From NCBI RefSeq assembly GCF_009914755.1, contig NC_060947.1: 64,000 nucleotides of DNA; one strand, written 5' to 3'. This stretch comes from the human T2T-CHM13v2.0 reference genome, Homo sapiens. Position numbers and translations under genes: made by a program. A model generated the notes under the pieces. It was not told where the DNA came from, searched no databases, and saw only the letters and a list, made by a program, of their open reading frames with translations. This document shows, one piece after another, positions 3,168 through 64,000 of the stretch (the first letter of the stretch is position 1; each line of letters begins with the position of its first letter).

Positions 3168-6100
3168 GTTTATTTTTCCAACAGAATTTCTGAATGTCTA
3201 CTATATGTCAAACACTGTTCTGGAGACTCAAAATGTAACCTTGAACAAAACAAAGTCCTTATTCTCAAGTGCTTATGTTCTAGTAAGGAAAGGTAGACTA
3301 TAATCAAATAAACAAGCAAAATCATAATATGTCAGTGAATGCAATGGAAAACAAAAAAAGCAGAGTGAATTAGTCCGTTCTCACATTGCTAATAAAGACA
3401 TGCTTGAGACTGGGTAATTTATAAAGGAAAGAGGTTTAATTGACTCACAGTTCAGCATGGCTATGGAGGCTTCAGGAAACTTACAATTGTAGTGGAAGGG
3501 GAAGCAAACATGTCCTTCACATGGTGGCAGCAAGGAGAAGAACCAAGCTAAAGGGGGAAAAGCCCTTTATTTAACCATCAGATCTCATGAGAACTCACTC
3601 ACTATCATGAGAACAGCAGCATGGGGATAATGGCCACATGATTCAATTACCTCCCACTGGGTCCCTCCCACGACACATGGGAATTATGGGAACTACAATT
3701 CATGATGACATTTGGGTGTGGACACAGCCAAACTATATCATTCCACCCCAGCCCCTCCCAAATCTCATGTCCTCATATTTCAAAACACAATCATGCCTTC
3801 CCAACAGTCCCCCAAGGCCTTAACTCATTCTGGCATTAACTCAAAAGCCAGACTCCAAAGTCCCACCTGAGACAAGGCAAGTCTCTTCTGCCTATGAGCC
3901 TAGGGCTGATGAGATCAAAAGCAAGTTAAAATCAAAGATGTAAAATCAAAAGCAAGTTAGTGACTTCCTAGATAGAGTGGGAGTACAAACATTGGGCAAA
4001 TACGCCCATTCTAAATGGAATAAAATTGGCCAAAACAAAGGAGATAAAGGCCTCATGCAAGTCCAAAATCCAGCAGGGAAGTCAAATCTTGAAGCTCTCA
4101 AATGATTTCCCTTGAATCCATGTCTCACATCCAGGTCATGCTGATGTGAGAGGTGGGCTCCCACAGCCTTGGGCCATACCACCCCTGTGGCTTTGCAGAG
4201 TAAATCCCCCCTCCTAGCTGCCTTCACAGGCTGGCATTGAGTGTCTTTGGCCTTTCTGGATGCACAATGCAAGTTGTCAGTGGATTTACCATTCTGGAGT
4301 CTGGAGGATGGTGGCCCTCTTCTCATAGCTCTACTAGGCAGTGCCCCAGTGGGGACTCTGTGTGGGGTCTCCAATCCCACATTTCCCTTCTGCACTGCCC
4401 TAGCATACGTCCTCCATAAGGACTTCACCCTGTAGCAAACTTCTGCTTGGAGATCCAGGCATTTCTGTACATCCTCTGAAACTGGGGCAGAGGTTCCCAA
4501 ACCTCAATTCTTGACTTCTGTGCACTCACAGGCCCAACACCACATGTAAGCCACCAAGGCTTGTGGCTTGCACCCTCTGAAGCAACAGCCTGAGCTGTAC
4601 ATTGGCCCCTTTTAGCCACAGCTGGAGCTGAAGCAGCTGGTATGCAGAACATCATGTCCTAAGGCTGTATAGAGCAGGGATGTCCTGGGCCTGGCCCATT
4701 AAACCATTTTTTCCTCCTAGGCCACAGGGCCTGTGACGGGAGGAGCTGACATGAAGGTCTCTGACATGCCCTGGAGACATTTTCCCCATTGTCTTGGTGA
4801 TTAACATTTGGCTCCTCATTACTTATGCAAATTTCTGCAACTGGCTTGAATTTCTACCCAGAAAATGGGTTTTTCTTTTCTATTGTATCACCAGGCTGCA
4901 AATTTTCCAAACTTTTCTTCTCTTCTTGCTCTTGAATGCTTTGCCACTTAGAAATTTCTTCTGCCAGATACCCTAAATCATCTCTCTCAAGTTCCAAGTT
5001 TCACAGATCTCTGAGGCAGGGGGAAAATGCCACCAATCTGTTTGCATAGCAAGAGTGATCTTTACTCCAGTTCCCAACAAATTCCTCATCTCCATCTGAA
5101 CCACCTCAGCCTGGATCTTATTATCCATATCACTATCAGCATTTTGGTTAAAGCCATTTAAGTCTCTAGGAAGTTCCAAACTTTCCCACATCTTCCTGTC
5201 TTCTGAGCCCCCCAAGTCTCTACGAAGTTCCAAACTTTCCCACATTTTTCTATCTTCTTATGAGCCCTCCAAATTATTCCAATCTCTGCCTGCTACTCAG
5301 TTCCAAAGTCACTTTCACATTTTCAGGTATCTTTACAGCAGCACCCCACTCCTGGTGCCAATTTAATGTATTATTCCATCCTCGTGCTACTAGTAAAGAC
5401 ATATCTGAGACTGGGTAATTGACACAGAAAAGATGTTTAATTGACTCATAGTTCAGCATGGCTGGGGAGGCCTCAGGAAACCTGCAATCATGGTCAAAGG
5501 ATAAGCAAACAGGTCCTTCTTCACATGGCAGCAGCTAGGAGAAGTGCCCAGCAAAAGGGGGGAAAGCCCCTTATAAAACCGTCAGATATTAGAGAACTCA
5601 CTATCATGAGAACAGCAGCATGGGGATAACTGCCCTCATGATTCAATTACTTCTAACCAGGTAAATCCCTTGATACATGGGGATTATCAGAACTACAATC
5701 CATGATGAAATTTTGGTGGAGACACAGCCAAACCATATCACAGAGCAAGAAGAAAAGGGAGTGCTAAGGTATATCTAACTATCTTACATACAGTAATAAA
5801 AAAAGACACCTTTTATAAAGTTACATTGATTAGAGACATAAGAGAAGTGAGAGAGCCAGCCCTGTAGATATTGGGAAAAGATAATTTAAGCAGAAGGAAC
5901 AGAAAGTACAGAAGCCTTGAGAAAGAATGTACTAGATGTATTCCAGAAAAAACAAAGAGGCTAATGTAGTTGGAGCAGAGCTAGCAAGGGGAGTAATAAG
6001 AGAGGAAGTCAGACAGATACCAGTCAGGCTAAAGAACATGAAAAGGCCCTGTAAGCCACTGTTAAGACTTCAGATTTTATTCTGAGTGAGATTGGGAACT

Positions 6101-7763: not shown

Positions 7764-12065
<4,302 letters not shown>

Positions 12066-28054: not shown

Positions 28055-31880
<3,826 letters not shown>

Positions 31881-48754: not shown

Positions 48755-50040
48755 TTGGGAAACAGGAATTCTAGGCCTAAGGGAACAAAGGAAAGAGGGA
48801 ACTAAAAAGACCCCCTCTGACATTCTCCCAGATAGTCCATTGAGGAGAATGTTGCAGATTCGAAGGGATAATCCTCAAACCAGGGACAAGAAAAAGCAAA
48901 AGATGATAAAATATTGCTGTTTTATCTGGCCCAAAAAGCCCATTCATCAGCCCTTGGTCTTTTGGCCTGAGTTTGGCTCAGATGAGGATTGGGTGTGCCA
49001 AGCTTTAATTCTCTATGTGAATACTAAAACCCCATCCTCACAAGAGGAGATGGGTTATGCTCTTTGCTGGATTAGTGAATTAACCCCCATGTTCCCCCTT
49101 AAAAAGAAAGAAAAAGAGCATAGTAAAAAGCCCTCACACAATATAAAGCCCTGGAGTCTCCAACATACTTTCTCCCTCCCCCCATACATCTCACAAAGTA
49201 GAGGACAGGGAGATCGGAGGGCATCAGAAAGGTCAGAGAAACAGGAATCTGGGGGTCATGAAGGAGCTAAACCCAATGCTTTCTTAAATCCTTTTCCAAA
49301 CTTGAGGAAAGAATTAGAACAATATAAGAAGGACATTACAAATTTCCCTATTCCTTCTAAACCGCAGGTATCTAACATGTACCCTCTTAGAGAAGGCCCT
49401 ATGGGACAGGGAGAAGTTGGATTTTTGAGTAACAAGTAGTGAGGTTAGGAACTTGAAAAAAGGAAGTGAGGCCACTCTTGGAAAATCCCCTCAGTTTAGC
49501 AGAGCAGATAAATCAGTTTTTAGGACCCAATTTTTATACTTGGAATGAGATGATGTCAATCGTGAATATTCTGTTTACTGGGGAAGAGAGGGGAATGATT
49601 AGAAGGACAACCATAACCATTTGGGAGAGGCAGCATCCTCTGAGGCAAGGAGTCCTGCCAGCTAAGTAGAAATTCCCAAATGTGAATCCCAGATGGGATA
49701 ACAATAACCCCAGAGATCGGGCCCAAATGCAGAACCTAAGGAAACCAATGATTTAAAAGATTAAAAAGTCCACTCCTAGGACACAAAATGTCTCAAAAGC
49801 ATTTGAGACCCAACAAGAAAAAGAGGAGACTCCCTCTGCCTTTCTGCAGAGGCTCAGAGATCAAATGAGAAAATATTCAGGATTAGATGCAGAGGACCAA
49901 GTAAGGCAAGGCCTTTTAAAGGTTAATTTTGTGACTGAAAGCTGGTCTAATGTTACTAAGAAACTGCAAAAGATTGATTGATGGAATGAAAAACCGATTA
50001 AGAATTACTGAGGGAAGCCCAAAAGGTTTTTGTAAGAAGA
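48755..50040 (+). pseudogene. gag: HERV-I gag remnant (MA-CA)
   Basis: DSPLRRML...KMIKYCCFIWP...WPEFGSDEDWVCQAL; CA fragment EQINQFLGPNFYTWNEMMSIVNILFTGEERGMIRR; MHR-like QQEKEETPSAFLQRL; start ATG apparently mutated to TTG. Confidence 0.8.
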
Positions 50041-51097
50041 AAGAAAAGAGAAACTGAGAAAGAAAGAAAAAGAAAAAGTAAAAAAGGAAATTGGAAAGAG
50101 AAAGAGGAGGAAACGGCAAACACAGAGGACAGAGAGAGAAAGAGGTAAGCTGCTGATCCTGAAAGCAGCGGAGAGCTGGCCATGCAGCTGCAGGCATGGG
50201 GCTGGCAGAAGCTGCAGAGCTGGACCAGACAGTTGAGATAAAAGTGGACAGTGTGAGAAAGCTGTTAATAAAAGCTGCTGCTGAACCTTTGTCATTTCGG
50301 CAGAGCTGTCTGTCTTTGCAGACAGATGGGAGGAGCCAGGTGCCCAGAGACAAAAAGAGGAAGAAACTAACTAAGGGAGAAAGAAAACAGGGGTTGACAG
50401 AGAGAGATAGAAAAAGAAAATGAGCAAGAGAGAGACTGGGAAAGACAGAGATCAAAGAGAGACACAGAAGGTGAGACTGGGGAGAGAGATAATGTAAAAG
50501 GAAGAAAGAGTACAAGAGGAAGTGAGAGGATGCAGAGAGGCTGGCAGGGCTGAGAAAAGGATCTAGAGGCTCAAGCAACAAGGAGGTGCAGGGAAAGGGT
50601 GGAGCATGGCCACTGAGGAGAGACAGAGCCAGAGAACTGGAGGATGCAAGTGAGAAAGGGATGTGGAGGAGAGTGTAGAATCAGGCTGCTTGAGGAATAG
50701 TAGGCTGCCTACAGCAAAGACTAGATGGCTGTATGTCAGGAGGTAAATAGAGAGGATTCAGGTTATGAAAGGGTAAACCGATAAGATGACCGTTAAGGTT
50801 TTGTTGTTTTACTGAGAGGCTGTAAATCCACCAGGGGAAGCTGTCACTAAGGCTGCAGAGGGGCTGGAGAGCTACACAGGGAAGATCAGAACTACTGTTG
50901 TAAACAAGTGAGTATAGAACCGGCAAATGATGAGGAGGGCTGCAGGGCTGTGTGGGGACTGTGGCTAACTGAAGAGGGCACACCCTGAAGAGGGGCCATG
51001 GCTGCTCAACTGTTTCTACAGTAATGGCCCTGTGTTACCAAATTGCATGCTTTGTCAGAGGCCAGAGTTCTGATGTTTTATGTGAAATTGGATTTTT

Positions 51098-54000
51098 TTT
51101 CTTTATTTCTTCTAAAAAAAAAGTGGCAGTTACACATGCAGCATGTGCAGGTTTGTTACATAGGTATACATGTGCCATGGTGGTTTGCTGCACCTAATGA
51201 CCAATCCTCTAAGTTTCCACCCCTCATCCCCATCCCCCAACTAGCCCTGGTGTGTGTTGTGCCCCTCTCTGTGTCCATGTGTTCTCAATGTTCAACTCCC
51301 ACTTATGAGTGAGAACATGTGGTGTTTGGTTTTCTGTTCCTGTGTTAGTTTGCTAAGGATAATGGCTTCCAGCTTCATCCATGTCCCTGCAAAAAAATAT
51401 AATCTCATTCCTTTTTATTTCTACACAGTATATCATGGTGTATATGGACCACATTTTAATTATCCAGTCTATCACTGATGGGCATGTGGGTTGGTTCCAT
51501 GTCTTTGCTATTGTAAATAGTACTGCAGTAAACATACATGTCCATGTGTCTTTATAGTAGAATGATTTATATTCCTTTGGATATATACCTAGTAATGGAA
51601 TTGCTGGGTCAAATGGTATTTCTGGTTCTAGATCCTTGAGGAATCGCCGCACTGTCTTCCACAATGGCTGAACTAATTTACATTCCAACCAACAGTGTAA
51701 AAGTGATCCTATTTCTACATAGCCTCTCCAGCATCTATTGTTTCCTAAATTTTTAATAATCGCTATTCTGACCAATGTGAGATGGCATCTCATTGTGGTT
51801 TTTATTTGCATTTCTCTGATGATCAGTGATGTTGAGCTTTTGTTCATATGATCGTTGGCCACGTGTTTTCTTTTGAGAAGTATCAATTCATATCCTTTGC
51901 CCACTTGTTGATGGAGTTGTTTTTTTTTCTTGTAAACATGTTTAAGTTCCTTGTAAATACTGGATATTAGACCTTTGTCAGATAGGTAGATTGCAAAAGT
52001 TTTCTCCCACTCTGTAGGTTGCCTGTTCACTCTGATGCTGGTTTCTTTTGCTGTACAGAAGCTTTTTATTTAATTAGATCCTATTTGTCAATTTTGACTT
52101 TTGTTGCAATGACTTTGGTGTTTTTGTAATTAAGTCTTTGCCCATGCCTATGTCCTGAATGGTATTGCCTAGGTTTTCTTCTAGCTTTTTTTAATGGTTT
52201 TGTGTTTTACATTTATGTCTTTAATCCATCTTGAGAAAATTTTTGTATAAGGTGTAAGGAAGGGGTCCAGTTTCTGCTTTCTGCATATGGCTAGCAAGTG
52301 TTCCCAGCACCATTTATTGAATAGTAGATCCTTTTCCCATTTCTTTTTTTTGTCAGGTTTGTTGAAGATCAGATGATTGTAGATGTGTGGTGCTATTTCT
52401 GAGGTCTCCATTCTGCTCCACTGGTCTATACATCTGTTTTGGTACCAGTACCATACTGTTTTGGTTACTGTAGTCTTGTAGTATAGTTTGAATTCAGGTA
52501 GTGTGATGCCTCCTGCTTTGTTCCTTTTGCTTAGGATTGTCTTGGCTATGTGGGGCCTTCTTTGATTCTGTATAAAATTTAAAGTAATTTTTTCTAATTC
52601 TGTGAACAATGTCAGTGGTAGTTTGATGGGAATAGTGTTGAATTTATAAATTACTTTGAGCAATATGGCCACTTTCACAATATTGATTCTATTTATGAGG
52701 ATGGAATGTTTTTCCATTTGTTAGTGTCCTCCCTTATTTCCTTGAGCAGTGGGTTGTAGTTCTCCATGAAGAATTCCTTTACATCCCTCGTTAGCTGTAT
52801 TTCTAGGTATTTTATTATCTTTGTAGTGATTGTAAAGGGGAGTTCATTAATGATTTGGCTCTCTATTTGCCTATTGTGGGTGTAAAGTAATTCTTGTGAT
52901 TTTGGCACATTGATTTCATATCCTGAAACTTTGCTGAAGTTGTTTATCAGTTCAAGAAGTTTTTGGGCTGAGATGATACAATTTCCTAAATATAAAAGTA
53001 TGTCATCTGCAGAGACAACTTAACTTCCCCTCTTCCTATTTGAATATCTTTTATTTCTTTCTCTTCCCTGATTGCCCTGGGCAGAACTTCCAATACTATC
53101 TTGAATAGGAGTGGTGAGAGAGAGCATACTTGTCTTGTACCAGTTTTCAAAGGGAATGTTTCCAGCTTTTGCCCATTCAATATAATATAGACAAGGTGGG
53201 TTTGTCATAAATAGCTCTTATTATTTTGAGATACATTCCATCAATACCTAGTTTATTGAGAGTTTTTAACATGAAGGGATATTGAATTTTATCAAAGGTT
53301 TTTTCTGCATCTCTTGAGATAATTATGTGGTTTTTGTCTTTGGTTCTGTTTATGTAATGGATTATGTTTATTGATTTGCATATGTTGAACAAGTCTTGTA
53401 TCCCAGAGATGAAGCTGACTTGATCATGGTGGATAAGTTTTTGATGTGCTGCTGGATTCAGTTTGCCAGTATTTTATTGAGGATTTTTGCATCGATGTTC
53501 ATCAGGGATATTGGCCTGAAATTTTTTTTGTTGTGTCTGTGTCAGGCTTTGGTATCAGGATGATGCTGGCCTCATAAAATGAGTTAGGGAGGAGTCCTTT
53601 CTTTTCAATTGTTTGTAATAGTTTCAGAAGGAAAGGTACCAACTTCTCTTTGTATTTCTGGTAGAATTCAGCTGTGAATCCATCTGGTTGTGGGTGTTTT
53701 TTTTTTGTGTGTGTGGTAGGCTATTAATTACTGCCTCAATTTCAGAGCTTGTTATTGGTTTATTCAAGGATTCAACTTCTTCTTCCTGGTTTAGTCTTGG
53801 AAGGGTGTATGAGTCCAGGAATTTATCCATTTCTTATTCATTTTCTGGTTTATTTGCATAGAGGTGTTTATAGTATTCTCCGATGGTAATTTGTATTTTT
53901 GTGCAGTCAGTGGTGATATCCCCTTTATCAATGTTTACTGTGTATATTTGATTCTTCTCTCCCTTCTTCTTTACTAATCTAGCCAGCAGTCTATCTATTT

Positions 54001-57000
54001 TGTTAATTTAAAAAACTAGCTCCTGAATTCGTTGATTTTTTTAGAGTTTTTTATGTCTCTATCTCCTTCAATTCTTTTCTGATCTTGGTTATTTCCTGTC
54101 TTCTGCTAGCTTTTGGATTAGTTTGCTTTTGCCTCTCTAGCACTTTTAATTGTGATGTTAGGGTGTCAATATGAGATGTTTCTAGCTTTCTGATTGAATA
54201 TTTAGTGCTATAAATTTCCCTCTTAACACTGCTTTAGTTGTGTCCCAGATATAGGGGTATGTTGTCTCTTTGTTCTCATTGGTTTCAAAGAACTCCTTGA
54301 TTTCTGCCTTAATTTCATTATTTATCCATGAGTCAAACAAGAGCAGGTTTTTCAATTTTCATTAAATTGTGTGGTTTTGAGTGAGTTTTTAAATACTGAG
54401 TTCTAATTTGATTGCACTGTGGTCTGAGAGACTGTTATAACTTCAGTTTTTTGCATTTACTGAGGAGTGTTTTACTTCAAATTATGTGGTCGATTTTAGA
54501 ATAAGTGCCATGTAGCACTGAGAAGAATATGTTCTGCTGATTTGGGGTTCAGAGTTCTGTAGACATCTCTCACTATTATTGTGTAGGAGACTAAGTCTCT
54601 TTGTAGGTCTCTAAGAACTTGTTTTGTGAATCTGGGTGTTCCTGTATTGGGTGCTTATACATATTTAGAATAGTCAGCTTTTCTTGTCAAATTCTTCCCT
54701 TTACCATTATATAATGCCTTCCTTTTTTTTTTTTATCTTTGTTGTTTTAAAGTGTGTTTCATCAGGACCTAGGATTGCAACCACTGCTGTTTTTTTGCTT
54801 TTCATTTGCTTGGTAAATATTCTTCCATCCCTTTATTTTGAGCCTGTGTGTGTCTCTGCATGTAAAATGGGTCTCCTGAATACAACACACTGATGGGTCT
54901 TGACTCTTTTATCCAGTTTGCCACTCTGTGTCTTTTAATTATGGCATTTACCCCATTTACATTTAAAGTTAGTATTGTTATGTGTGAATTTGATGCCATC
55001 ATCCTGCTGCTATTTGGTTATTTTGCACACTATTTGATGCAGTTTCTTCGTAGAGTCATTGGTCTTTATATTTTGGTGTGTTTTTGCAGTGGCTGGTACA
55101 GGTTTTTTCTTTCCACATTTAGTGCTTCTTTCAGGATCTCTTGCAGGGCAGGCCTGGTGGTAACAAAATACCTCAGCATTTGCTTGTCTGGAAAGGATTT
55201 TATTTCTCCTTTGTTTATGAAGCTTAGTTTGGCTGGATATGAAATTCTAGGTTGGAAATTATTTTCTTTAATTGTTGAATATTAGCCCCCAATCTCTTCT
55301 GGCTTGTAGTTTCTGCAGAGAAGTCCACCGTTAGTCTGATGGGCTTCCCTTTGGAGGTGACCTGGCCTTTCTCTCTAGCTGCCCTTAACAGTTTTTATTT
55401 GATTTCAACCTTGGAGAATCTGATGATTATGTGTCTTGGGGTAGATCATCTCATGGAGTATCTTAATGGTGTTCTCTGTATTTCCTGAATGTGCATGTTG
55501 GTCTGTCTGGCTAGGCTGGGGAAGTTCTCCTGGATAACATCCTGAAGTGTGTTTTCCAGCTTGTTTACATTCTCCCCATCTCCTTCTGTTACTCCAATCA
55601 ATCGTAAGTTCAGTCTTTTTATGAAGTCCCATATTTCTTGGAGGCTTTGTTCAATTTTTTTCATTCTTTTTTTCTCTATTACTCTCTGCACTTCTTACTT
55701 CAGTAAGGTGGTCTTCAAACTCTGATATCCTTTCTTCTACTAGGTTGATGTGGCTGTTGATTCTTGTGTATGCTTCACAAAGTTATCATGCTGTGTTTTT
55801 CAGCTCCATTAAGTCATGTATGTACCTCTCTAAACTGGTTATTCTAGTTAGCAATTCCACTAACCTTTTATCAATGTTCTTAGCTTATTTGCATTGGGTT
55901 AGAACATGCTCCTTTAGTTCATCATAGTTTTTTTATTACCCATCTTCTGAAGCCTACTTCTGTCCGTTCATCCATCTGATTTTCCACCCAGTTCTGTGCC
56001 CCTGATGGAGGGATGTTGCAATCATTAAGAAGAGAACAGGCATTCTGGCCTTTTGTGTTTTCAGAATTTTCTCATTGATTCTTTCTCATACTCATGAGTT
56101 CGTCTAGTTTTGGTCTTTGAGGTTGCTATCCCTTGGATGGAATTTTTGTGGGAGTCTTTTTGTTGTTGTTGTTGTTCTTGTTGTTGATGTTGTTTTTGTC
56201 ACTTTCTGCTTGTTTGTTTTTCTTTCAATAGTTAGGTCCCTCTTCTGTAGGGCTGCTGCAGTTGGCTGGGGGTTCACCTCAGGCTCTGTTCATCTGATTC
56301 ACGCTCATGCTTGGAGATGTCACTCAAGGAGGCTGGAGAGAAGCAATGATGGATGCCTCCTCCTTCTTGTGAAACCTCTGACCTTGAGGGGCACCAAACT
56401 GATGCCAGTAGGATTTCTTCTATATAGGTCGTCTGACAACCCCTGTTAAAGTGTGTAACCCCATTGGGTGGCACAGGGAGCAGGACCCATTTAATGAAGC
56501 ATCTTTTCCCTCAGTGGAAAGGATCTGTTTCTCTATGGGGAAACTCACTCATCTGGGCTGTCTAGATTTCTCAGAACTACTAGGAGGATAGGCTAAGTCT
56601 GCTCATCTGCACAGACTGCAGCCACCCCTCCCTCTAGGGGCTCAGGCCCATTGAGATCCAAATTCTGTCCCTGAGCCTCTGGCTGGAGTTATTGAAGATT
56701 CTGCCAGGAAGGCTCACCCATTGAGGGAGGATGGGTCAGGGTTGGGCCTGAAGAGTCACTCTGGCCACAGACTGCCACAGCCTGTTTGCTGGGCTGTGGG
56801 GACAAGCCTTAGGGCCAAGCAATCCAGCCTCCCTGGCTCTAGCAGGGGAAAAGCACAGCCTGGAGTTATAGAAGTGGGTGCCACCCTTCCCCCACCCAGT
56901 GAGCCTAACGTGTTAGGCAGTTGCCAGTCCCAGTGCTGGCTGCTGCCCCTCCCCCAAGGAGCTCAAAGGGCTTAGACAACTGGCAGCTGCAGCCTGTGCT

Positions 57001-57452
57001 GGTCACAGGCTAGGGTCCCTCCCCACAGGAGTTTGGTATGTTTTAGCAGATTCCAGCTGAGAGGCTGTAAGAATCTGTGCATTCTTACACAGATTGGGAC
57101 AATAGGTCACGGGACACTAAACCATGGTGGCATGGGTTCATGGGTGGGATCTTCCAATCCATGGGTTGCACAGTTCCGTGGAAAAAGCAATTTTCCTGAC
57201 TGGGTAGTGCACTCACTCACCACCTCCCTTGGCTGGGGGGAGGGGGTTCCCCTTCCCCATGTGGCTCTCAAGTGAGCCACCACACCACAATGCTCTTCCT
57301 TCTCTCCATGTTTCATGCCAGCTTTCTAGTCAATTTTGATGAGAGAACCTAGATACTTTGGTTGCCAGTGAAACATTCACATGCTTATTAAGGTTTTTTT
57401 TGATGGGAGTCTCTGAACACTGCAGCTTCTGGTTGGCCATCTTGGCCCCACC
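51098..57452 (-). mobile_element. Full-length L1PA8A-like LINE-1 (ORFs disrupted)
   Basis: polyT at ~51093, 3'UTR ...CCTCTAAGTTTCCACCCCTC; ORF2 start MMASNSHITILTLNVNG (55002); 5' start GGTGGGGCCAAGATGGCC; TSD GAAATTGGATTTTT at 51084-51097 and 61879-61892. Confidence 0.88.
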
Positions 57453-58115
57453 CATGACCAAGTGAGGTTCATTCCAGAGAAGGATGTTGGGAACAGGTCC
57501 CCCAAAATCTGGCCATAAACTGGCCCCAAAACTGGCCATAAACAAAATTTCTGCAGCACTGTCACACATTCATGATGGCCATAATGCCCACACTGGAAGG
57601 TTGTGGGTTTACCAGAATGAGGGCAAGGAACACCTGGCCCACCCAGGGCGGAAAATTGCTTAAAGACATTCTTAAGCCACAAACAATAGCATGAGCAATC
57701 TGCTCCTGCTGCAGTTAACTAGCCCAACCTATTCCTTTAATTTGGCCCATCCCTTCATTTTCCATAAGGGATACTTTTAGTTAACCAAATATCTATAGAA
57801 GCAATGCTAATGACTGGCTTGCTGTTAATAAATACGTGGGTAAATCTCTGTTCAGGGCTCTGAGCTCTGAAGGCTGTGAGGGCCCTGATTTCCCACTTCA
57901 CACCTCTATATTTCTGTGTGTGTGTCTTTAATTCCTCTAGTGCCGCTGGGTTAGGGTCTCCCCGACTGAGCTGGTATCGGCAAATGGCATCCATCATGGG
58001 GACTCAAATCCAGGTCAAAGGTTTGCCAGAGGGATGGTTGGAGAACATGGAACTAGCTAGAGGACACCTGAGTACTCTTAAAGCAATCCCTGTGGTGAGT
58101 AAGAAGGGGAGTTTG

Positions 58116-59000
<885 letters not shown>

Positions 59001-59079
59001 AACTGGGGCATTTCCAGCTGAGGCCATTCCCTCACCCCTGTACGATGTCTGTCCCCCGCCTCAGCCAGTAGTGCCACAG

Positions 59080-59720
59080 TAGATTTATGCTGCACAAAAG
59101 TTGTGAGTCTTCTGCCTGGGGAACCCCTGAAAAAGGTCCCAACAGAAGTCTGTGGACCCTTGCCAGTGGGGACAATAGGATTACTTCTAGGCAGGTCTAG
59201 TTTAAGTTTAAAAGGGGTACAAATACATAGAGGAGTCATTGATTCAGATTATAATGGGGAAATTCAAATCATTATATCTACTTCTGTTCCCTGGAAAACA
59301 GAGCCAGGAGAGTGCACAGCACAGCTCCTGATTGTGCCATATGTGGGAATGGGAAAAGTGAAATTAAATGAACAGGAGGATTTTGAATCACAAATAAACA
59401 AGGCAAAGCAGCTTACTGGGTACATCAAATTATTGATAAATGTCCTGTCTGTGAAATAACTATTCAGGGAAAGAAATTTAAAGGTTTGGTAGATACGGGA
59501 GTGGACATTTCAATCATTTCTCTACAGCACTGGCTGTCCATGTGGCCAATTCAACCACTCAATTTAACATAGTTGGAGTTGGTAAAGCCCCTAAAGTGTA
59601 TCACAGTAGTTATATTTTGCATTGTGAAGGGCCTAACAGACCACCTGGAACTATTCAACCAATCATAACTTCTGTACCTATAAATTTATGGGGGAGATAT
59701 TTATTACAACAATGGAGAGC
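59080..59720 (+). pseudogene. pro: Betaretroviral dUTPase-protease remnant
   Basis: dUTPase motifs LLGRSSL and GVIDSDYNGEI; protease active site GLVDTGVDISII (~59483) and INLWGRYLL. Confidence 0.85.
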
Positions 59721-59724
59721 ACAA

Positions 59725-61250
59725 GCCAAGCTCTAGCTACATTTTTCTGTATGTCAAATATTAAACACATTACTGGTATCCCATACAATTCTCAAGGACA
59801 AGCCATAGTGGGAAGAATGAATATTTCCCTAAAACAGCAGTTGCAAAAGCAGAAAGGGGGAAATAGAGAATATGGAACCCCACAGATGCAACTGAATCTA
59901 GCATTATTAACTTTATATTTTTTGAGCCTGCCCAAAAGCCAGATGCTATCAGCAGCTGAACAGCATCTACAGAAACCAGCTGCAAAGACAGAAGCAGAAC
60001 AACTGATTTGGTGGAGAGATCCAATAACAAAAAGTTGGAAAATAGGTAAAATCATAACTTGGGGTAGAGATTATGCTTGTGTTTCTCCAGGCCAAAATCA
60101 ACAGCCAATTTGGATACCATCAAGACAAATGAAACCTTATCATGAGCCAGATTCTGGGAGGATCCCGAGGACCCCTCAGTTGAAGCCATGTCAAGACTGA
60201 CGTTGAGGAAGACCCCAGCTTTCACGAGCAACACCCGTTTAACACAGCCACCCACCTGGGGAGAGATCACGAAGCTGTCACAGATTGTGGAAGAAAACCT
60301 GAGAAAAGCAGGACAACCAGTCACAATGAGTAATTTAATGGTAGCTATGATAGCAGTTATCACCCTGCCATGAGTATTCCTTCAACAAGGGCTGACACAG
60401 AGAACAATTATACTTACTGGGCATATATATCAATCCTGGATGGTAATAATGCCTGAATATAATCACTCTATGACACAGTTACACATGCTTTCTGATCTCA
60501 GTATTTACCCTAATAAATTTGTTCCTATAATTGAGGCATACCACCTTAAAAAACCTATTTGTAAACAAAATAGAACCTGGCCAGAAATAATGAATGTACT
60601 TGTTTAGGAAGATTGCTTTACAGAACAGGCAGAGGGGCTGCATAACGATTCCTATGGAATCTTTATTGATTGGTCCCCTAAAGGGATGTTTAACCTAAAT
60701 TGCACCTCTCAGTCTGCATGCCATGGCCACACTATGCTCAGCTGATCTAAACAAAATGGTCAGATGGTAGAAATGATAAGAAGTATGGCAAAAGTTCCTA
60801 TTATCTGAAACCATGGCAGTATAGTGGCACCTCAACCTCAAATGATATGGCTTATTGTAGGAGGTAAACATGAAGGATTTGTGGAAACTATTAATAGCTC
60901 TTAATAAGATCAAAATTTGGGAAAGAATAAAAAAGTATCTAGAAGGACACACTACAAACTTGTTTTTGGATATGGCAAAATTAAAAGAACAAATATTTAA
61001 AACATCTCAAGCACACATGGCCTTAATGCCAGGAACTGGAGTGTTTAAAGGAGCTGCAGACAGATTAGCAGCTAGTAACCCATTAAAATGGATAAAAATA
61101 CTTGGAAGCTCTGTAATTTCAATGATGATTGTGCTTTTAATCTGTGTTGTTTGTCTTTGTATAGTCTGCAGATGTGGATCCTGACTCCTGTGAGAAGTAG
61201 CTCACCATGACAAAGCTGCCTTTGCTTTTATCGCTTTGCAAATCAAATAA
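59725..61250 (+). pseudogene. HML-3 integrase C-terminal half and env remnants
   Basis: HITGIPYNSQGQAIV...WWRDP...TWGRDYACV; env leader PPTWGEITKL; TM ...NPLKWIKILGSSVISMMIVLLICVVCLCIVCR. Confidence 0.8.
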
Positions 61251-62434
61251 GGGGGACATGTAGGGAACAGGCCCCCCCCAAAATCTGGCCATAAACTGGC
61301 CACAAAACTGGCCATAAACAAAATCTCTGCAGCACTGTATCATGTTCATGATGGCCATAACGCCCACACTGGAAGGTTGTGGGTTTACCAGAATGAGGTC
61401 AAGGAACACCTGGCCCGCCCAGGGTGGAAAACCTCTTAAAGGCATTTTTAAGCCACAAACAAAAGCATGAGTGATCTGTGCCTTAAGGACATGCTTCTAT
61501 TGCAGTTAACTAGCCCAACCTATTACTTTAATTTGGCCCATCCCTTCGTTTCCCATAAGGGATACTTTTAGTTAATTTAATATCTATAGAAACAATGCTA
61601 ATGACTAGCTTGCTGTTAATAAATATGTGGGCAAATCTTTGTTCAGGGCTCTCAGCTCTGAAGGCTGTGAGGGCCCTGATTTCCCACTTCACACCTCTAT
61701 ATTTCTGTGTGTGTGTCTTTAATTCCTCTAGTGCCGCTGGGTTAGGGTCTCCCCGACTGAGCTGGTCTTTGCAGATGGAAGGTTGGATCAATATTTAAAA
61801 ATCAATCAACAGAAATCATGACATAAGGCAAAAAGGATGAAGGCATGTCTTACATGGCTGAAGCAAGAGGAAGAGCAGGAAATTGGATTTTTAAATGCTG
61901 GTAATCAGTTCAAAAACCTTTAAAACCCAATACAGACAAATGACGATGTCAGTTTGCCATCCCTGAAGTAGAGAGGGCCTGTGTTGGGGAGATATCAGCC
62001 AAAATGCCTTAAGTGGGATCTATGAAAGTTCTGTTTCCCAGAGCCTGGCTGGGCTGGGGGAGGATCCTTGCAGCTGAAGAGGAGGAAAAGTCACTGAGTC
62101 ACCTCCCAGAGTGGGACAAACTGGAGACCCTTTGCAGTTGCTGGGTCACCATCAGGGGTGGCATGGAATATTAACAGTGCAGCTCTCAGTCTGCCAGAAA
62201 GATGGATGGTGGATTCAAAGCAAAAAAAAAGGAAGGGCAGGCAGAGCCAGGGATGCCTTTGCTGATAAGAGTGCCTGTCAGGGGAGTCACCACAGGCTGG
62301 TAGCTCTTCAAACCAGCAGCTCTTGGCTCAGAGCCAGACCCAGCTGGGTTTGGTCCAAGGCATCCTGGGATGCCTGCTGGTCAGTCCCTTGCCTCCCCAA
62401 GTTCCTCCTGGAGTCAGTGGGCCCTGGGGAGGTT

Positions 62435-63950
62435 CCTAACCTAAATCCAGCTGGTTTCTTATGGAAAGAAGAGGAGGATAAGAAGGTATCAAAACATAAT
62501 TGTTTAAATGTCATAGAACATCAAACTAAAATTAAAACAGACCTTAAAGAAACTCCACTATGTAATGGGATGAGGCTGCTTGTGAATGGGTCATCCCAAG
62601 TAATACATGGTAAAAGACACAATAGCTATGTTGTCATTAATAAAGACAAACAATCCTTATGTGAAAAAAGTAAATTACCCAATAACTGGTGAGCACAAAC
62701 CTGTGAATTACATGTTCTTAACAAGGCCCCCAAGCTCCTAAAAGGCCAAGAAGTTACTATATATACTAATTTCCAATATGCCTATGTAGTAGTACACACC
62801 TTTGGAAAGATCTGGACAAAACAGGGCATACATAAGTAGCAGGGAAAAGAATTGGTACATGGGGAGCTGGTCAAACAAGTTTTAGAAAGCCTCCTGCTTC
62901 CAGCGTAGATAGCCATAGTTCATGTAAATGGCCATCAGAAAGGAAACACTATAGAAGCTGTGGGAACAGGCTTGAAGATGAAGCTGCCAAGCCAGCCTCC
63001 CTGGAGGAAGAAGTTAGACTGTTTAGCCTAATCCCAGATATCCCTAAAGTGGTATTAAAACCCCAATTTTCTAAAGAGGAGGAGGAACAGCTGGGCAAGA
63101 TAGGGGCCATTCAACCTGAAGATGGGAGGTGAATGCTCCCTGACGGGAGAGGAATGACAAGAAAAGCCATAATGACAGAACGGATGTCCATACTGCATAA
63201 GGGAAGTCATTGAGGTCCCCAGGCCATGTGTAATGCAATACTCAAGAATTATGGCTGTAAAGGGATTTATACCCTTGCTAAACAAGTGTGTGGGGGTTGT
63301 GGGACCTGCCAGAAAATAAACAAAAAGATAGTTAGAAAACAGACTACTGGAGGGAGACCTCCTGGGTTAAGGCCATTTCAAAGCGTTTAAGTAGATTTTA
63401 CAGAAATGTCCAAAATAGGGAGACTAAAGTATCTACTGGTAATGATACACCACCTCTCTGGCTGGGTGGAGGTCTTCCCCCTCCTAACTGCCACCACCAG
63501 GAATGTGGTCAAAATAATCTTAGAACAAATTATACCCAGATTTGGCCTGGTAGAAAATATTGATTCAGACAGTGGGAGCCATTTTGCCTCAAGTGTGCTA
63601 AGGGGAATTATGAAAAGTTTACACATTAGATGGAATTACCACTCCCCTTGGCATCTCCCTTCCTCTGGAAAAGTCAAAAGAATAAATCAAACTCTCAAAA
63701 AGCATATTACTAAACTAATCTTAGAAACTAAAATGCCTTAGACCAAATGTCTCCCAATAGCACTCTTTAGGATTAGGACATCCCCAAGGAAAGACTAGGG
63801 GATTGTTCCCTTACAAGTTATTATATGAACTCCCATATTTAGGTAGGACTACTGACCTTCCTACTATGGAAACAAAAGATCACTTTTTAAGACATTATAT
63901 ACTGGCCATATCCTCCACCCTGTCATTTCTTAGGTTAAAAGAACTTCTAA
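62435..63950 (+). pseudogene. pol: HERV-I pol remnant (connection, RNase H, integrase)
   Basis: LNPAGFLWKEE...HNCLNVIEHQTK...LLVNGSS; CxxC near 63298; VDFTEM...KYLLV...SGWVEVFP...IDSDSGSHF...SSGKVKRINQTLK; runs toward the window end. Confidence 0.85.
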
Positions 63951-64000
63951 GACCAGGCAAGGTGGCTCATGCCTGTAATCCCAGCACTTTGGGAGGCCAA
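63951..64000 (+). mobile_element. Alu 5' start (cut by window end)
   Basis: GACCAGGCAAGGTGGCTCATGCCTGTAATCCCAGCACTTTGGGAGGCCAA. Confidence 0.9.

What the first reader, a model, noticed from the sequence alone, without database searches (positions are those of the whole stretch)
51084..61892. Fossil L1 apparently retrotransposed from a spliced, MSTA-LTR-promoted transcript (5' transduction hidden under a HERV-K)
Seen: the L1PA8A-like element's 14-bp TSD (GAAATTGGATTTTT, followed by AAA = EN site TTTT/AA) is not at the L1 5' end (57452) but 4.4 kb further, at 61879-61892, where HERV-I resumes. Removing the HML-3 provirus via its own TSD (GAAGGA/GATGGA) leaves ~130 extra nt. In L1 sense these read: CTGCTCTTCCTCTTGCTTCAGCCATGTAAGACATGCCTTCATCCTTTTTGCCTTATGTCATGATT | TCTGTTGATTGATTTTTAAATATTGATCCAACCTTCCATCTCTGGAATGAACCTCACTTGGTCATG | GGTGGGGCCAAGATGG (L1 start). 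Known: block 1 matches the MSTA LTR from just downstream of its TATA box and stops exactly at CATGATT, where MST/THE1 LTRs continue GTAAG, the MaLR splice donor (see the THE1 LTR here: CAATT/GTAAG on the minus strand at ~3478-3489). Block 2 resembles antisense old-L1 ORF2, ending where that sequence continues GT. Inference: a source L1 was transcribed from an upstream MaLR LTR promoter and spliced through a cryptic exon onto its 5' end. The chimeric mRNA was then fully reverse-transcribed. This would be an LTR-promoter route to germline L1 mobilisation that bypasses the L1 promoter; MaLR LTRs are known DUX4 and early-embryo promoters.
Basis: partly seen in the sequence, partly recalled or inferred. 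Interest (0 to 1): 0.82.

Follow-up and report, generated by a model that had tools for sequence, protein, structure and literature searches.

The report
Fossil L1 carrying an LTR-derived spliced leader
An ancient full-length L1 jumping gene on the human X chromosome was copied from an RNA that appears to have started at the promoter of an unrelated LTR element and been spliced, a rare but already described way for L1 to be mobilised from a borrowed promoter.

Summary
An exact 14-bp repeat at 51084-51097 and 61879-61892 is a true L1 target-site duplication. Four paralogous copies of the host ERV carry it once, with both flanks contiguous.

Inside it lie three things:
- A decayed L1 on the minus strand (51098-57453) with family-typical 5' and 3' ends.
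- A 130-nt non-L1 leader.
- A later betaretrovirus-like provirus (57485-61773) that splits the leader.

Leader block 1 (65 nt) is an MST-type MaLR LTR segment. It starts 25-31 nt after the LTR's TATA-like box and ends exactly where LTR copies continue GTAAGT. Block 2 (65 nt) is an antisense piece of an old L1 ORF2.

Best reading: an LTR-initiated, spliced chimeric RNA was retrotransposed in one event. The first splice is well supported. Plain contiguity with the source L1, or a template switch, fit equally well. No source locus or sibling copy was found.

Spliced 5' transductions of gene first exons onto near-full-length L1 are already published (PMC13174262). This is therefore a TE-promoter variant of a known kind, and of moderate interest.

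The parts
51084..51097 (-). Target-site duplication, the copy next to the L1 poly(A) end
   Evidence: Exact 14-mer. It is single in paralogous ERV copies.
51098..51122 (-). L1 3' terminus. In L1 sense it reads a T-run, then AGAAGAAATAAAG, then a short A tail that merges with the A-rich start of the TSD.
   Evidence: 11 of 11 other copies inspected share this tail. 39 other scored matches reach query position 199-209 of 217.
51098..57453 (-). Full-length, decayed L1 of 6356 bp. Its 5' UTR of about 1.5 kb starts GGGTGGGGCCAAGATGG.
   Evidence: Pfam finds ORF1 domains at 55066-55694 and RVT_1 at 52693-53473 on the minus strand. In 26 of 29 inspected copies the match starts within 0-6 nt of 57453, and the upstream DNA is unrelated.
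57454..57484 (-). Leader block 2, the part next to the L1. It includes the left copy of the provirus 6-bp duplication (57479-57484).
57485..61773 (+). Internally deleted betaretrovirus-like (HERV-K-type) provirus with an Alu inside, inserted later into the leader. The LTRs lie at about 57485-57983 and 61262-61773.
   Evidence: The LTR pair shows 93% mean column identity. Pfam finds dUTPase, RVP and IN_DBD_C, plus a weak GP41, on the + strand. The flanking 6-mers are GAAGGA and GATGGA.
61774..61813 (-). Leader block 2, the distal part: an antisense fragment of an old L1 ORF2 (RT region). It includes the right 6-bp copy (61774-61779).
   Evidence: Local alignment scores are 33, 33 and 27 against three in-window L1 ORF2 regions. 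The best score in each of 20 shuffles was 13-17.
61814..61878 (-). Leader block 1: the exon-like piece of an MST-type MaLR LTR, from about the transcription start to the splice donor.
   Evidence: 39 other scored matches show 83-92% identity, and none passes query position 66. In 19 loci, GT follows in 14 and GTAAG in 12. A TATA-like heptamer lies 25-31 nt upstream in 17 of 18.
61879..61892 (-). Target-site duplication, the copy at the 5' end of the insertion. It is followed by AAA, so the nick site reads TTTTT/AAA.

Best explanation
One L1 retrotransposition event copied a chimeric RNA. I infer that transcription began at the TATA-directed start site of an MST-type MaLR LTR lying upstream of a full-length source L1.

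The LTR's own GTAAGT donor was spliced to an acceptor inside an antisense fragment of an older L1. The transcript then ran into the source L1 and ended at the L1's own poly(A) site.

The simplest version has the acceptor 65 nt upstream of the source L1, so block 2 is just the source's upstream flank. That needs one intron.

The L1 proteins made from this RNA nicked a TTTTT/AAA site in the pol region of a gammaretrovirus-like ERV. They reverse-transcribed the RNA to its 5' end, leaving a 14-bp duplication.

Later a HERV-K-type provirus integrated into the leader with a 6-bp duplication, and an Alu inserted into that provirus.

Shown here: a single insertion, the leader's make-up and boundaries, and the order of nesting. 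Inferred: LTR-driven transcription, splicing, and the layout of the source locus.
For: - **TSD and empty site.** The 14-mer is exact twice. 4 of 6 paralogous ERV loci show it once, with the flanks contiguous.
- **Leader is not L1 consensus.** None of 39 other scored L1 5' ends (485 candidates) reaches into the leader. 26 of 29 inspected start at query positions 32-38, that is at 57453 to 57447.
- **Block 1.** 39 other scored matches of 195 candidates all stop at query position 52-66 of 114, and 33 of them stop at exactly 65. The LTR copies go on with GT in 14 of 19 and GTAAG in 12 of 19. A TATA-like heptamer starts 25-31 nt before the leader's first base in 17 of 18.
- **Block 2** is antisense L1 ORF2, so both of its ends are internal to a repeat. 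A simple nested insertion would not place it against the middle of an LTR.
- **The L1 is complete** from a family-typical 5' end to a family-typical 3' tail.
- **Literature (passages read).** An MSTD LTR has its major start site 35 bp after a TATA box and a splice donor in the LTR (PMC5513427). MaLR LTRs carry donors near the 3' end of the LTR (PMC5538554). ORR1A0 has a TATA box at -30 and an intact donor (PMC4056533). MSTA LTRs start spliced transcripts in human and macaque oocytes (10.1101/723254). 17 L1 insertions carry gene first exons, 6 of them ending at donors, and the L1s are mostly near full length (PMC13174262).
Against: - **No source locus was found.** The 34-nt and 31-nt pieces of block 2 match only themselves at up to 3 mismatches. 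Junction-spanning queries of 62 and 65 nt match only themselves. None of 55 fetched loci has the leader parts in a source-like arrangement. These searches would miss a copy about 83% identical, which is the identity expected at this age.
- **The acceptor cannot be seen.** In three antisense L1 homologues the two bases before the block 2 start are AT, not AG.
- **GT is not universal.** Of the 19 LTR copies, 6 are near-identical duplicates of one another. Counting those as one, the independent count is about 9 of 14 with GT.
- **The block 2 / L1 junction is ambiguous.** It shows 2-5 nt of possible microhomology (GG, or GGTGG with one indel). That also fits a template switch.
- **No orthologues could be examined.**
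Confidence: 0.6

Rival explanations
1. Template switch or RNA joining. The reverse transcriptase copied a normal, self-promoted full-length L1 RNA to its capped 5' end, then jumped to an internal site of an unrelated LTR-initiated, already spliced RNA and ran to that RNA's 5' end. Alternatively the two RNAs were ligated or trans-spliced beforehand. No LTR need lie upstream of the source L1.
For: - The L1 part begins at the family's canonical first bases, as expected if the template ended there.
- The leader runs to the LTR start site, as expected for run-off on a second template.
- There is possible microhomology at the junction.
- No source locus was found.
- PMC13174262 lists template switching, ligation and trans-splicing as possible routes. 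It notes exons joined to the first 10 bp of L1 without an acceptor.
Against: - Known switch or ligation chimeras (the U6/L1 type) mostly carry small structured RNAs and 5'-truncated L1s (PMC13174262). Here the L1 is full length and the partner is a Pol II transcript.
- The published gene-exon/L1 class was read by its authors as favouring splicing.
- It requires an extra, independent RNA to be at the integration site.
Confidence: 0.22
2. Block 2 is a free-standing cryptic exon in an antisense L1, with AG before it and GT after it, and it is spliced precisely onto the first base of the source L1.
For: - Antisense L1 homologues have a GT within 0-1 nt of the block end in 2 of 3 cases.
- PMC13174262 reports exons that end at donors and are joined to the first 10 bp of L1 (MAP3K13, FHIT).
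Against: - The inferred donor (GTGGAT or GTTGGA) is weak, and it is absent in 1 of 3 homologues.
- An acceptor would have to sit exactly at the L1's first base.
- Contiguity explains the same junction with no extra assumption.
Confidence: 0.12
3. Unspliced 5' transduction. At the source, the truncated LTR, the antisense L1 piece and the L1 were already contiguous genomic DNA after earlier rearrangements, and the LTR promoter simply read through.
For: The leader starts at the expected LTR start site under this reading too. No source was found to exclude it.
Against: The LTR piece stops exactly at the base before the family's GTAAGT. A random deletion breakpoint would land there about once in a few hundred positions. 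Both sides of the join are internal to repeats, which a simple nested insertion does not produce.
Confidence: 0.05

Closest known systems
Spliced 5' transduction chimeras of gene or lncRNA first exons with near-full-length L1 (PMC13174262, Cell Genomics 2026; section 13 read in full)
   Same: - One TPRT event with a TSD, an EN motif and an A tail.
- A sense-oriented 5' piece that starts at a transcript start and ends at a splice donor.
- An L1 that is close to full length, and a source L1 that was usually not found.
- Some junctions fall in the first 10 bp of L1 with no acceptor.
   Different: Here the leader is made wholly of repeats: an MaLR LTR exon plus an antisense L1 piece. That screen reported 'unique (non-repetitive)' 5' pieces. 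This locus is not in its Table S5 by coordinate prefix, although my hg38 position is an estimate. A provirus now splits the leader.
Classical L1 5' transduction from an upstream genomic promoter (as defined in PMC6681178; passage read)
   Same: Extra upstream sequence lies between the 5' TSD copy and the L1 5' end, and transcription starts outside the L1.
   Different: The leader is not one contiguous genomic stretch. Its first join sits at a splice donor.
5'-transducing SVA families carrying a spliced host exon (SVA-F1/MAST2; recalled, not looked up here)
   Same: A non-LTR retrotransposon gains a foreign first exon by splicing and is retrotransposed with it.
   Different: That SVA lineage went on to amplify. 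No sibling of this L1 leader was found.
LTR-initiated transcripts from MaLR/MSTA LTRs in oocytes and other tissues (10.1101/723254, PMC5538554, PMC5513427; passages read)
   Same: The LTR's TATA-directed start and its own donor are used to make a first exon that is spliced to downstream sequence.
   Different: Those transcripts splice into host genes. Here the downstream partner is an L1 whose RNA was then retrotransposed.
U6/L1 and other small-RNA/L1 chimeras (PMC13174262, PMC6789731; listing and passages)
   Same: Foreign RNA is fused in sense to the 5' side of an L1 within a single TSD.
   Different: Those partners are full-length small RNAs and the L1s are mostly 5'-truncated. Here the partner is a Pol II LTR transcript fragment and the L1 is complete.

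Membership tests
Endonuclease-dependent L1 (TPRT) insertion | Target-site duplication flanking the whole insert | tested here: met
   Exact 14-bp repeat. It is single in 4 of 6 paralogous ERV loci, with the flanks contiguous.
Endonuclease-dependent L1 (TPRT) insertion | Nick at a TTTT/AA-like site and an A-rich tail at the 3' end | tested here: met
   The + strand reads TTTTT/AAA at the empty site. The family-typical tail ends in AATAAAG plus a few A that merge with the TSD.
Endonuclease-dependent L1 (TPRT) insertion | Orthologous empty site in an outgroup species | not testable with these tools
   No other primate genome was held. Only paralogous ERV copies were used.
L1 5' transduction | Non-L1 sequence between the 5' TSD copy and the canonical L1 5' end, in sense | tested here: met
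   The leader is 130 nt. 0 of 39 other scored L1 5' ends extend into it.
L1 5' transduction | A source locus where the transduced sequence lies upstream of a progenitor L1 | tested here: inconclusive
   Only self matches were found, and no such arrangement exists in 55 loci. The searches are too insensitive for a copy about 83% identical.
Spliced exon-L1 chimera (the class in PMC13174262) | The 5' piece starts at a transcript start and ends at a splice donor | tested here: met
   This holds for block 1. It starts 25-31 nt after a TATA-like box in 17 of 18 LTR copies, and GT follows its end in 14 of 19. For the end of block 2 the answer is inconclusive.
Spliced exon-L1 chimera (the class in PMC13174262) | Splice acceptor at the L1 side of the junction | tested here: not met
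   The L1 part begins at its first canonical bases, so there is no internal L1 acceptor. The paper reports the same for some of its own cases.
MST-type MaLR LTR (block 1) | Sequence homology to the LTR region between the TATA box and the donor | tested here: met
   83-92% identity to 39 other genomic copies. Their flanks show the LTR context. That the context is MST rather than THE1 rests on my recall of the consensus sequences.
MSTA subfamily specifically | Best match to the MSTA consensus over other MST or THE1 subfamilies | not testable with these tools
   No Dfam or Repbase library was on hand.
Twin-priming 5' inversion of the same L1 RNA | The inverted piece derives from the same element and sits beside a truncated L1 | tested here: not met
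   Block 2 is no closer to this element's own ORF2 (score 27) than to other L1s (score 33). The L1 is full length, and block 1 would be left unexplained.
   LTR pair. The 6-bp duplication matches at 5 of 6 positions and is validated by a gapless ORF2 alignment. dUTPase and RVP were found. The HML-3 subgroup itself was not testable.
   Gag_p30 at 49757-49981 and rve at 63391-63741, both on the + strand. The family name was not testable.

The most novel reading that the evidence does not exclude
Germline-active MaLR LTR promoters (oocyte and early-embryo LTR-initiated transcripts) were a recurrent, overlooked way to express and mobilise L1s whose own promoters were silenced. Such events hand L1 a ready-made foreign first exon. 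This could be one source of the repeated replacement of L1 5' UTRs in primate evolution. Published screens that look only at non-repetitive 5' pieces would miss these cases.
Probability: 0.15. Interest if true: 0.7.

Novelty: new variant of a known kind. Interest (0 to 1): 0.42.

Why it matters
L1 is normally thought to depend on its own internal promoter, which the host silences in the germline. A heritable insertion copied from an LTR-started, spliced RNA shows that another repeat's germline promoter could do that job at least once.

It also suggests that screens for L1 5' transductions should include leaders built from repeats. As a single fossil without a source locus it is an illustrative case, not proof of a general route.

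Tried and rejected
**Leader as part of the L1 family consensus: rejected.** None of the other copies carries it.

**Leader as part of the host ERV: rejected.** Paralogous copies are contiguous across the site.

**3' transduction as a handle on the source: rejected.** The odd 3' tail is family-typical in 11 of 11 copies.

**Twin priming: rejected**.

**Sibling copies with the same leader: none found.** None appeared among the 39 scored block 1 matches. The block 1/2 junction query found only itself.

**Source hunt: nothing found.**
- Pattern searches at up to 3 mismatches (one search failed on a parameter limit).
- Short junction queries.
- A scan of 55 fetched loci.
- Comparing by eye the places listed, I saw no LTR match near an L1 5' end on the same strand.

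**Block 2 against the window:** blastn-short gave no hit. A local alignment with shuffled controls did.

**Literature:** searches listed no paper on an LTR-exon-led L1 insertion. The phrase 5' transduction cannot be searched as written, because the prime sign is not accepted. Subscription papers are not covered.

**L1PA8A dating:** PMC3525338 gave nothing usable for dating.
Full report
**1. The observation**

The 14-mer GAAATTGGATTTTT occurs exactly twice, at 51084-51097 and 61879-61892. A one-mismatch copy lies at 49413. Shuffles give 0.10 matches on average at up to one mismatch, and 0 of 100 shuffles reached 3 (family D11).

To test whether it is a target-site duplication, I searched the window's own assembly with the left flank. 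I then compared both flanks with the six paralogous loci found.
- In L053, L054, L055 and L056 the left-flank alignment ends, and the right-flank alignment begins, on the same 14 nt. These copies read straight through with a single 14-mer-like stretch followed by AAATGCTGG.
- L058 agrees when its alignments are extrapolated.
- L057 is disturbed near the site.

So everything from 51098 to 61878 was inserted as one piece, or into that piece later. The + strand nick site reads TTTTT/AAA, the usual L1 endonuclease site.

**2. What lies inside**

*The L1.* Pfam finds L1 ORF1 domains at 55066-55694 and reverse transcriptase at 52693-53473, both on the minus strand and both broken by stops.

A 231-nt query over the L1 5' end and the adjoining leader gave 39 other scored matches out of 485 candidates. 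None reached the leader. I inspected 29 of them:
- 26 start at query positions 32-38, which correspond to 57453-57447. They typically begin GGG(T/C)(G/A)GGGCCAAGATGG.
- 3 start a few bases earlier.
- All 29 have unrelated DNA upstream.

The 3' end (a T-run, AGAAGAAATAAAG, then A's) is shared by 11 of 11 inspected copies. There is therefore no 3' transduction. The L1 is complete and canonical at both ends. The label L1PA8A could not be checked.

*The provirus.* Two LTRs (about 57485-57983 and 61262-61773) align at 93% mean column identity. Between them lie dUTPase, retroviral protease, an integrase C-terminal domain and a weak GP41 match on the + strand. An Alu also lies there (families D4 and D12). 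This is a deleted betaretrovirus-like provirus. It is flanked by GAAGGA and GATGGA.

*The host ERV.* It has Gag_p30 (49757-49981) and an integrase core (63391-63741) on the + strand, so it is gammaretrovirus-like.

**3. The leader**

Without the provirus and one 6-mer, 130 nt separate the L1 5' end from the TSD.

*Block 1* (61878 down to 61814, 65 nt) matches many genomic LTR copies at 83-92%. There were 39 other scored matches out of 195 candidates. None goes past query position 66 of 114, and 33 end at exactly 65.

In the 19 loci fetched:
- The LTRs continue after that point with GT in 14 and GTAAG in 12, followed by typical LTR sequence.
- A TATA-like heptamer starts 25-31 nt before the position of the leader's first base in 17 of the 18 copies that have one.
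- Six of the 19 are near-identical duplicated copies. Counting those as one, the independent count is about 9 of 14 with GT.

From recalled consensus sequences, this context is MST rather than THE1.

*Block 2* (65 nt), read on the + strand, aligns to the RT-coding part of ORF2 in three L1s of the window: 7912-7972, 29737-29797, and the element's own 53365-53427.
- The scores are 33, 33 and 27. The best score in each of 20 shuffles was 13-17.
- It is therefore antisense to the L1 that carries it.
- The alignment is gapless across the provirus site once one 6-mer is removed. This independently confirms the 6-bp duplication.
- Block 2 is no closer to the element's own ORF2 than to other L1s, which argues against twin priming.

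**4. Reading the two joins**

*Join 1 (block 1 to block 2)* sits exactly before the LTR family's GTAAGT, and both sides are internal to repeats. A nested insertion would not give this, and a random deletion would hit that base rarely. Splicing from the LTR donor is the natural reading.

It fits what is known of MaLR LTRs:
- An MSTD LTR with its start site 35 bp after a TATA box and a donor in the LTR (PMC5513427).
- Conserved donors in MaLR LTRs (PMC5538554).
- ORR1A0 with a TATA box at -30 and an intact donor (PMC4056533).
- MSTA LTRs starting spliced transcripts in human and macaque oocytes (10.1101/723254).

The acceptor cannot be seen. Antisense L1 homologues have a pyrimidine-rich run and then AT, not AG, before the block start.

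*Join 2 (block 2 to L1)* is open.
- Antisense L1 homologues continue GGTGGATAAG, GTTGGATAAG or GGGGGATACG.
- The first bases overlap with the L1's GGGTGGGG.
- Three readings fit: block 2 is simply the upstream flank of a source L1 that had inserted into an older L1; a second cis or trans splice; or a template switch at the end of the L1 RNA.

I favour the first, because it needs no acceptor at the L1's first base.

**5. Source and siblings**

None was found. Only self matches came back for the 34-nt and 31-nt pieces at up to 3 mismatches and for the 62-nt and 65-nt junction queries. None of 55 loci holds a source-like arrangement.

At the identity seen between copies of this age (82-89%), these searches would probably miss the source. 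This is absence of evidence only.

**6. What is known**

5' transduction from an upstream promoter is textbook (PMC6681178).

PMC13174262 (section 13 read in full) reports 17 L1 insertions with gene or lncRNA 5' exons.
- 15 are in sense, and 6 end at donors.
- The L1s are mostly near full length, and no source L1s were found.
- Some exons are joined to the first 10 bp of L1.
- It dealt with non-repetitive 5' pieces, and its text does not mention LTR-derived leaders.
- Its spreadsheets hold no row with this locus's estimated hg38 coordinate prefix in the 5' transduction table. My hg38 estimate rests on a recalled gene position, and the PDFs could not be read.

Searches listed no paper on an LTR-exon-led L1 insertion.

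**7. Verdict**

The finding is a repeat-promoter variant of a published kind of event, known here from one fossil without its source.

Noticed in passing
window 50445-50907, 57941-58094, 60091-61699 (+): The predicted lncRNA LOC105373254 (from the annotation supplied) is built from repeats. Exon 1 lies in the host ERV. Exon 2 starts at the end of the provirus 5' LTR and runs into the Alu. Exon 3 runs from the provirus interior into its 3' LTR. Its first intron spans the whole L1.
   Followed up: partly
window 58070-58424 and 63953-63997: Alu sequence lies inside the provirus, and another Alu lies near the window end (families D4 and D12). This adds a further layer of nesting: ERV, then L1 with leader, then provirus, then Alu.
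   Followed up: no
It is too diverged from block 1 for blastn at E 0.01. By recalled consensus features it looks MST/MLT-like rather than THE1.
   Followed up: partly
window 57449-57458 (-): At the block 2 / L1 junction, the bases that antisense L1 homologues would continue with (GGTGG...) overlap the L1's first bases (GGGTGG...). This gives 2-5 nt of possible microhomology.
   Followed up: partly
window 49413-49426: A one-mismatch copy of the 14-mer (GAAGTTGGATTTTT) lies 1.7 kb upstream in the host ERV. No role is apparent.
   Followed up: no
L025 (G000:C2:74954831-74958028) and L027: Two other L1s with the same type of 5' UTR sit directly against MaLR-like LTR sequence. In L025 the LTR's 5' part is in sense; in L027 it is antisense. 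These look like ordinary insertions into LTRs, not leaders, but their TSDs were not checked.
   Followed up: no
L014-L018 and L008 (G000:C5, 21-72 Mb): Six of the 19 LTR loci are near-identical copies with the same flanks. They probably belong to a segmental duplication family, so they are not independent counts.
   Followed up: no
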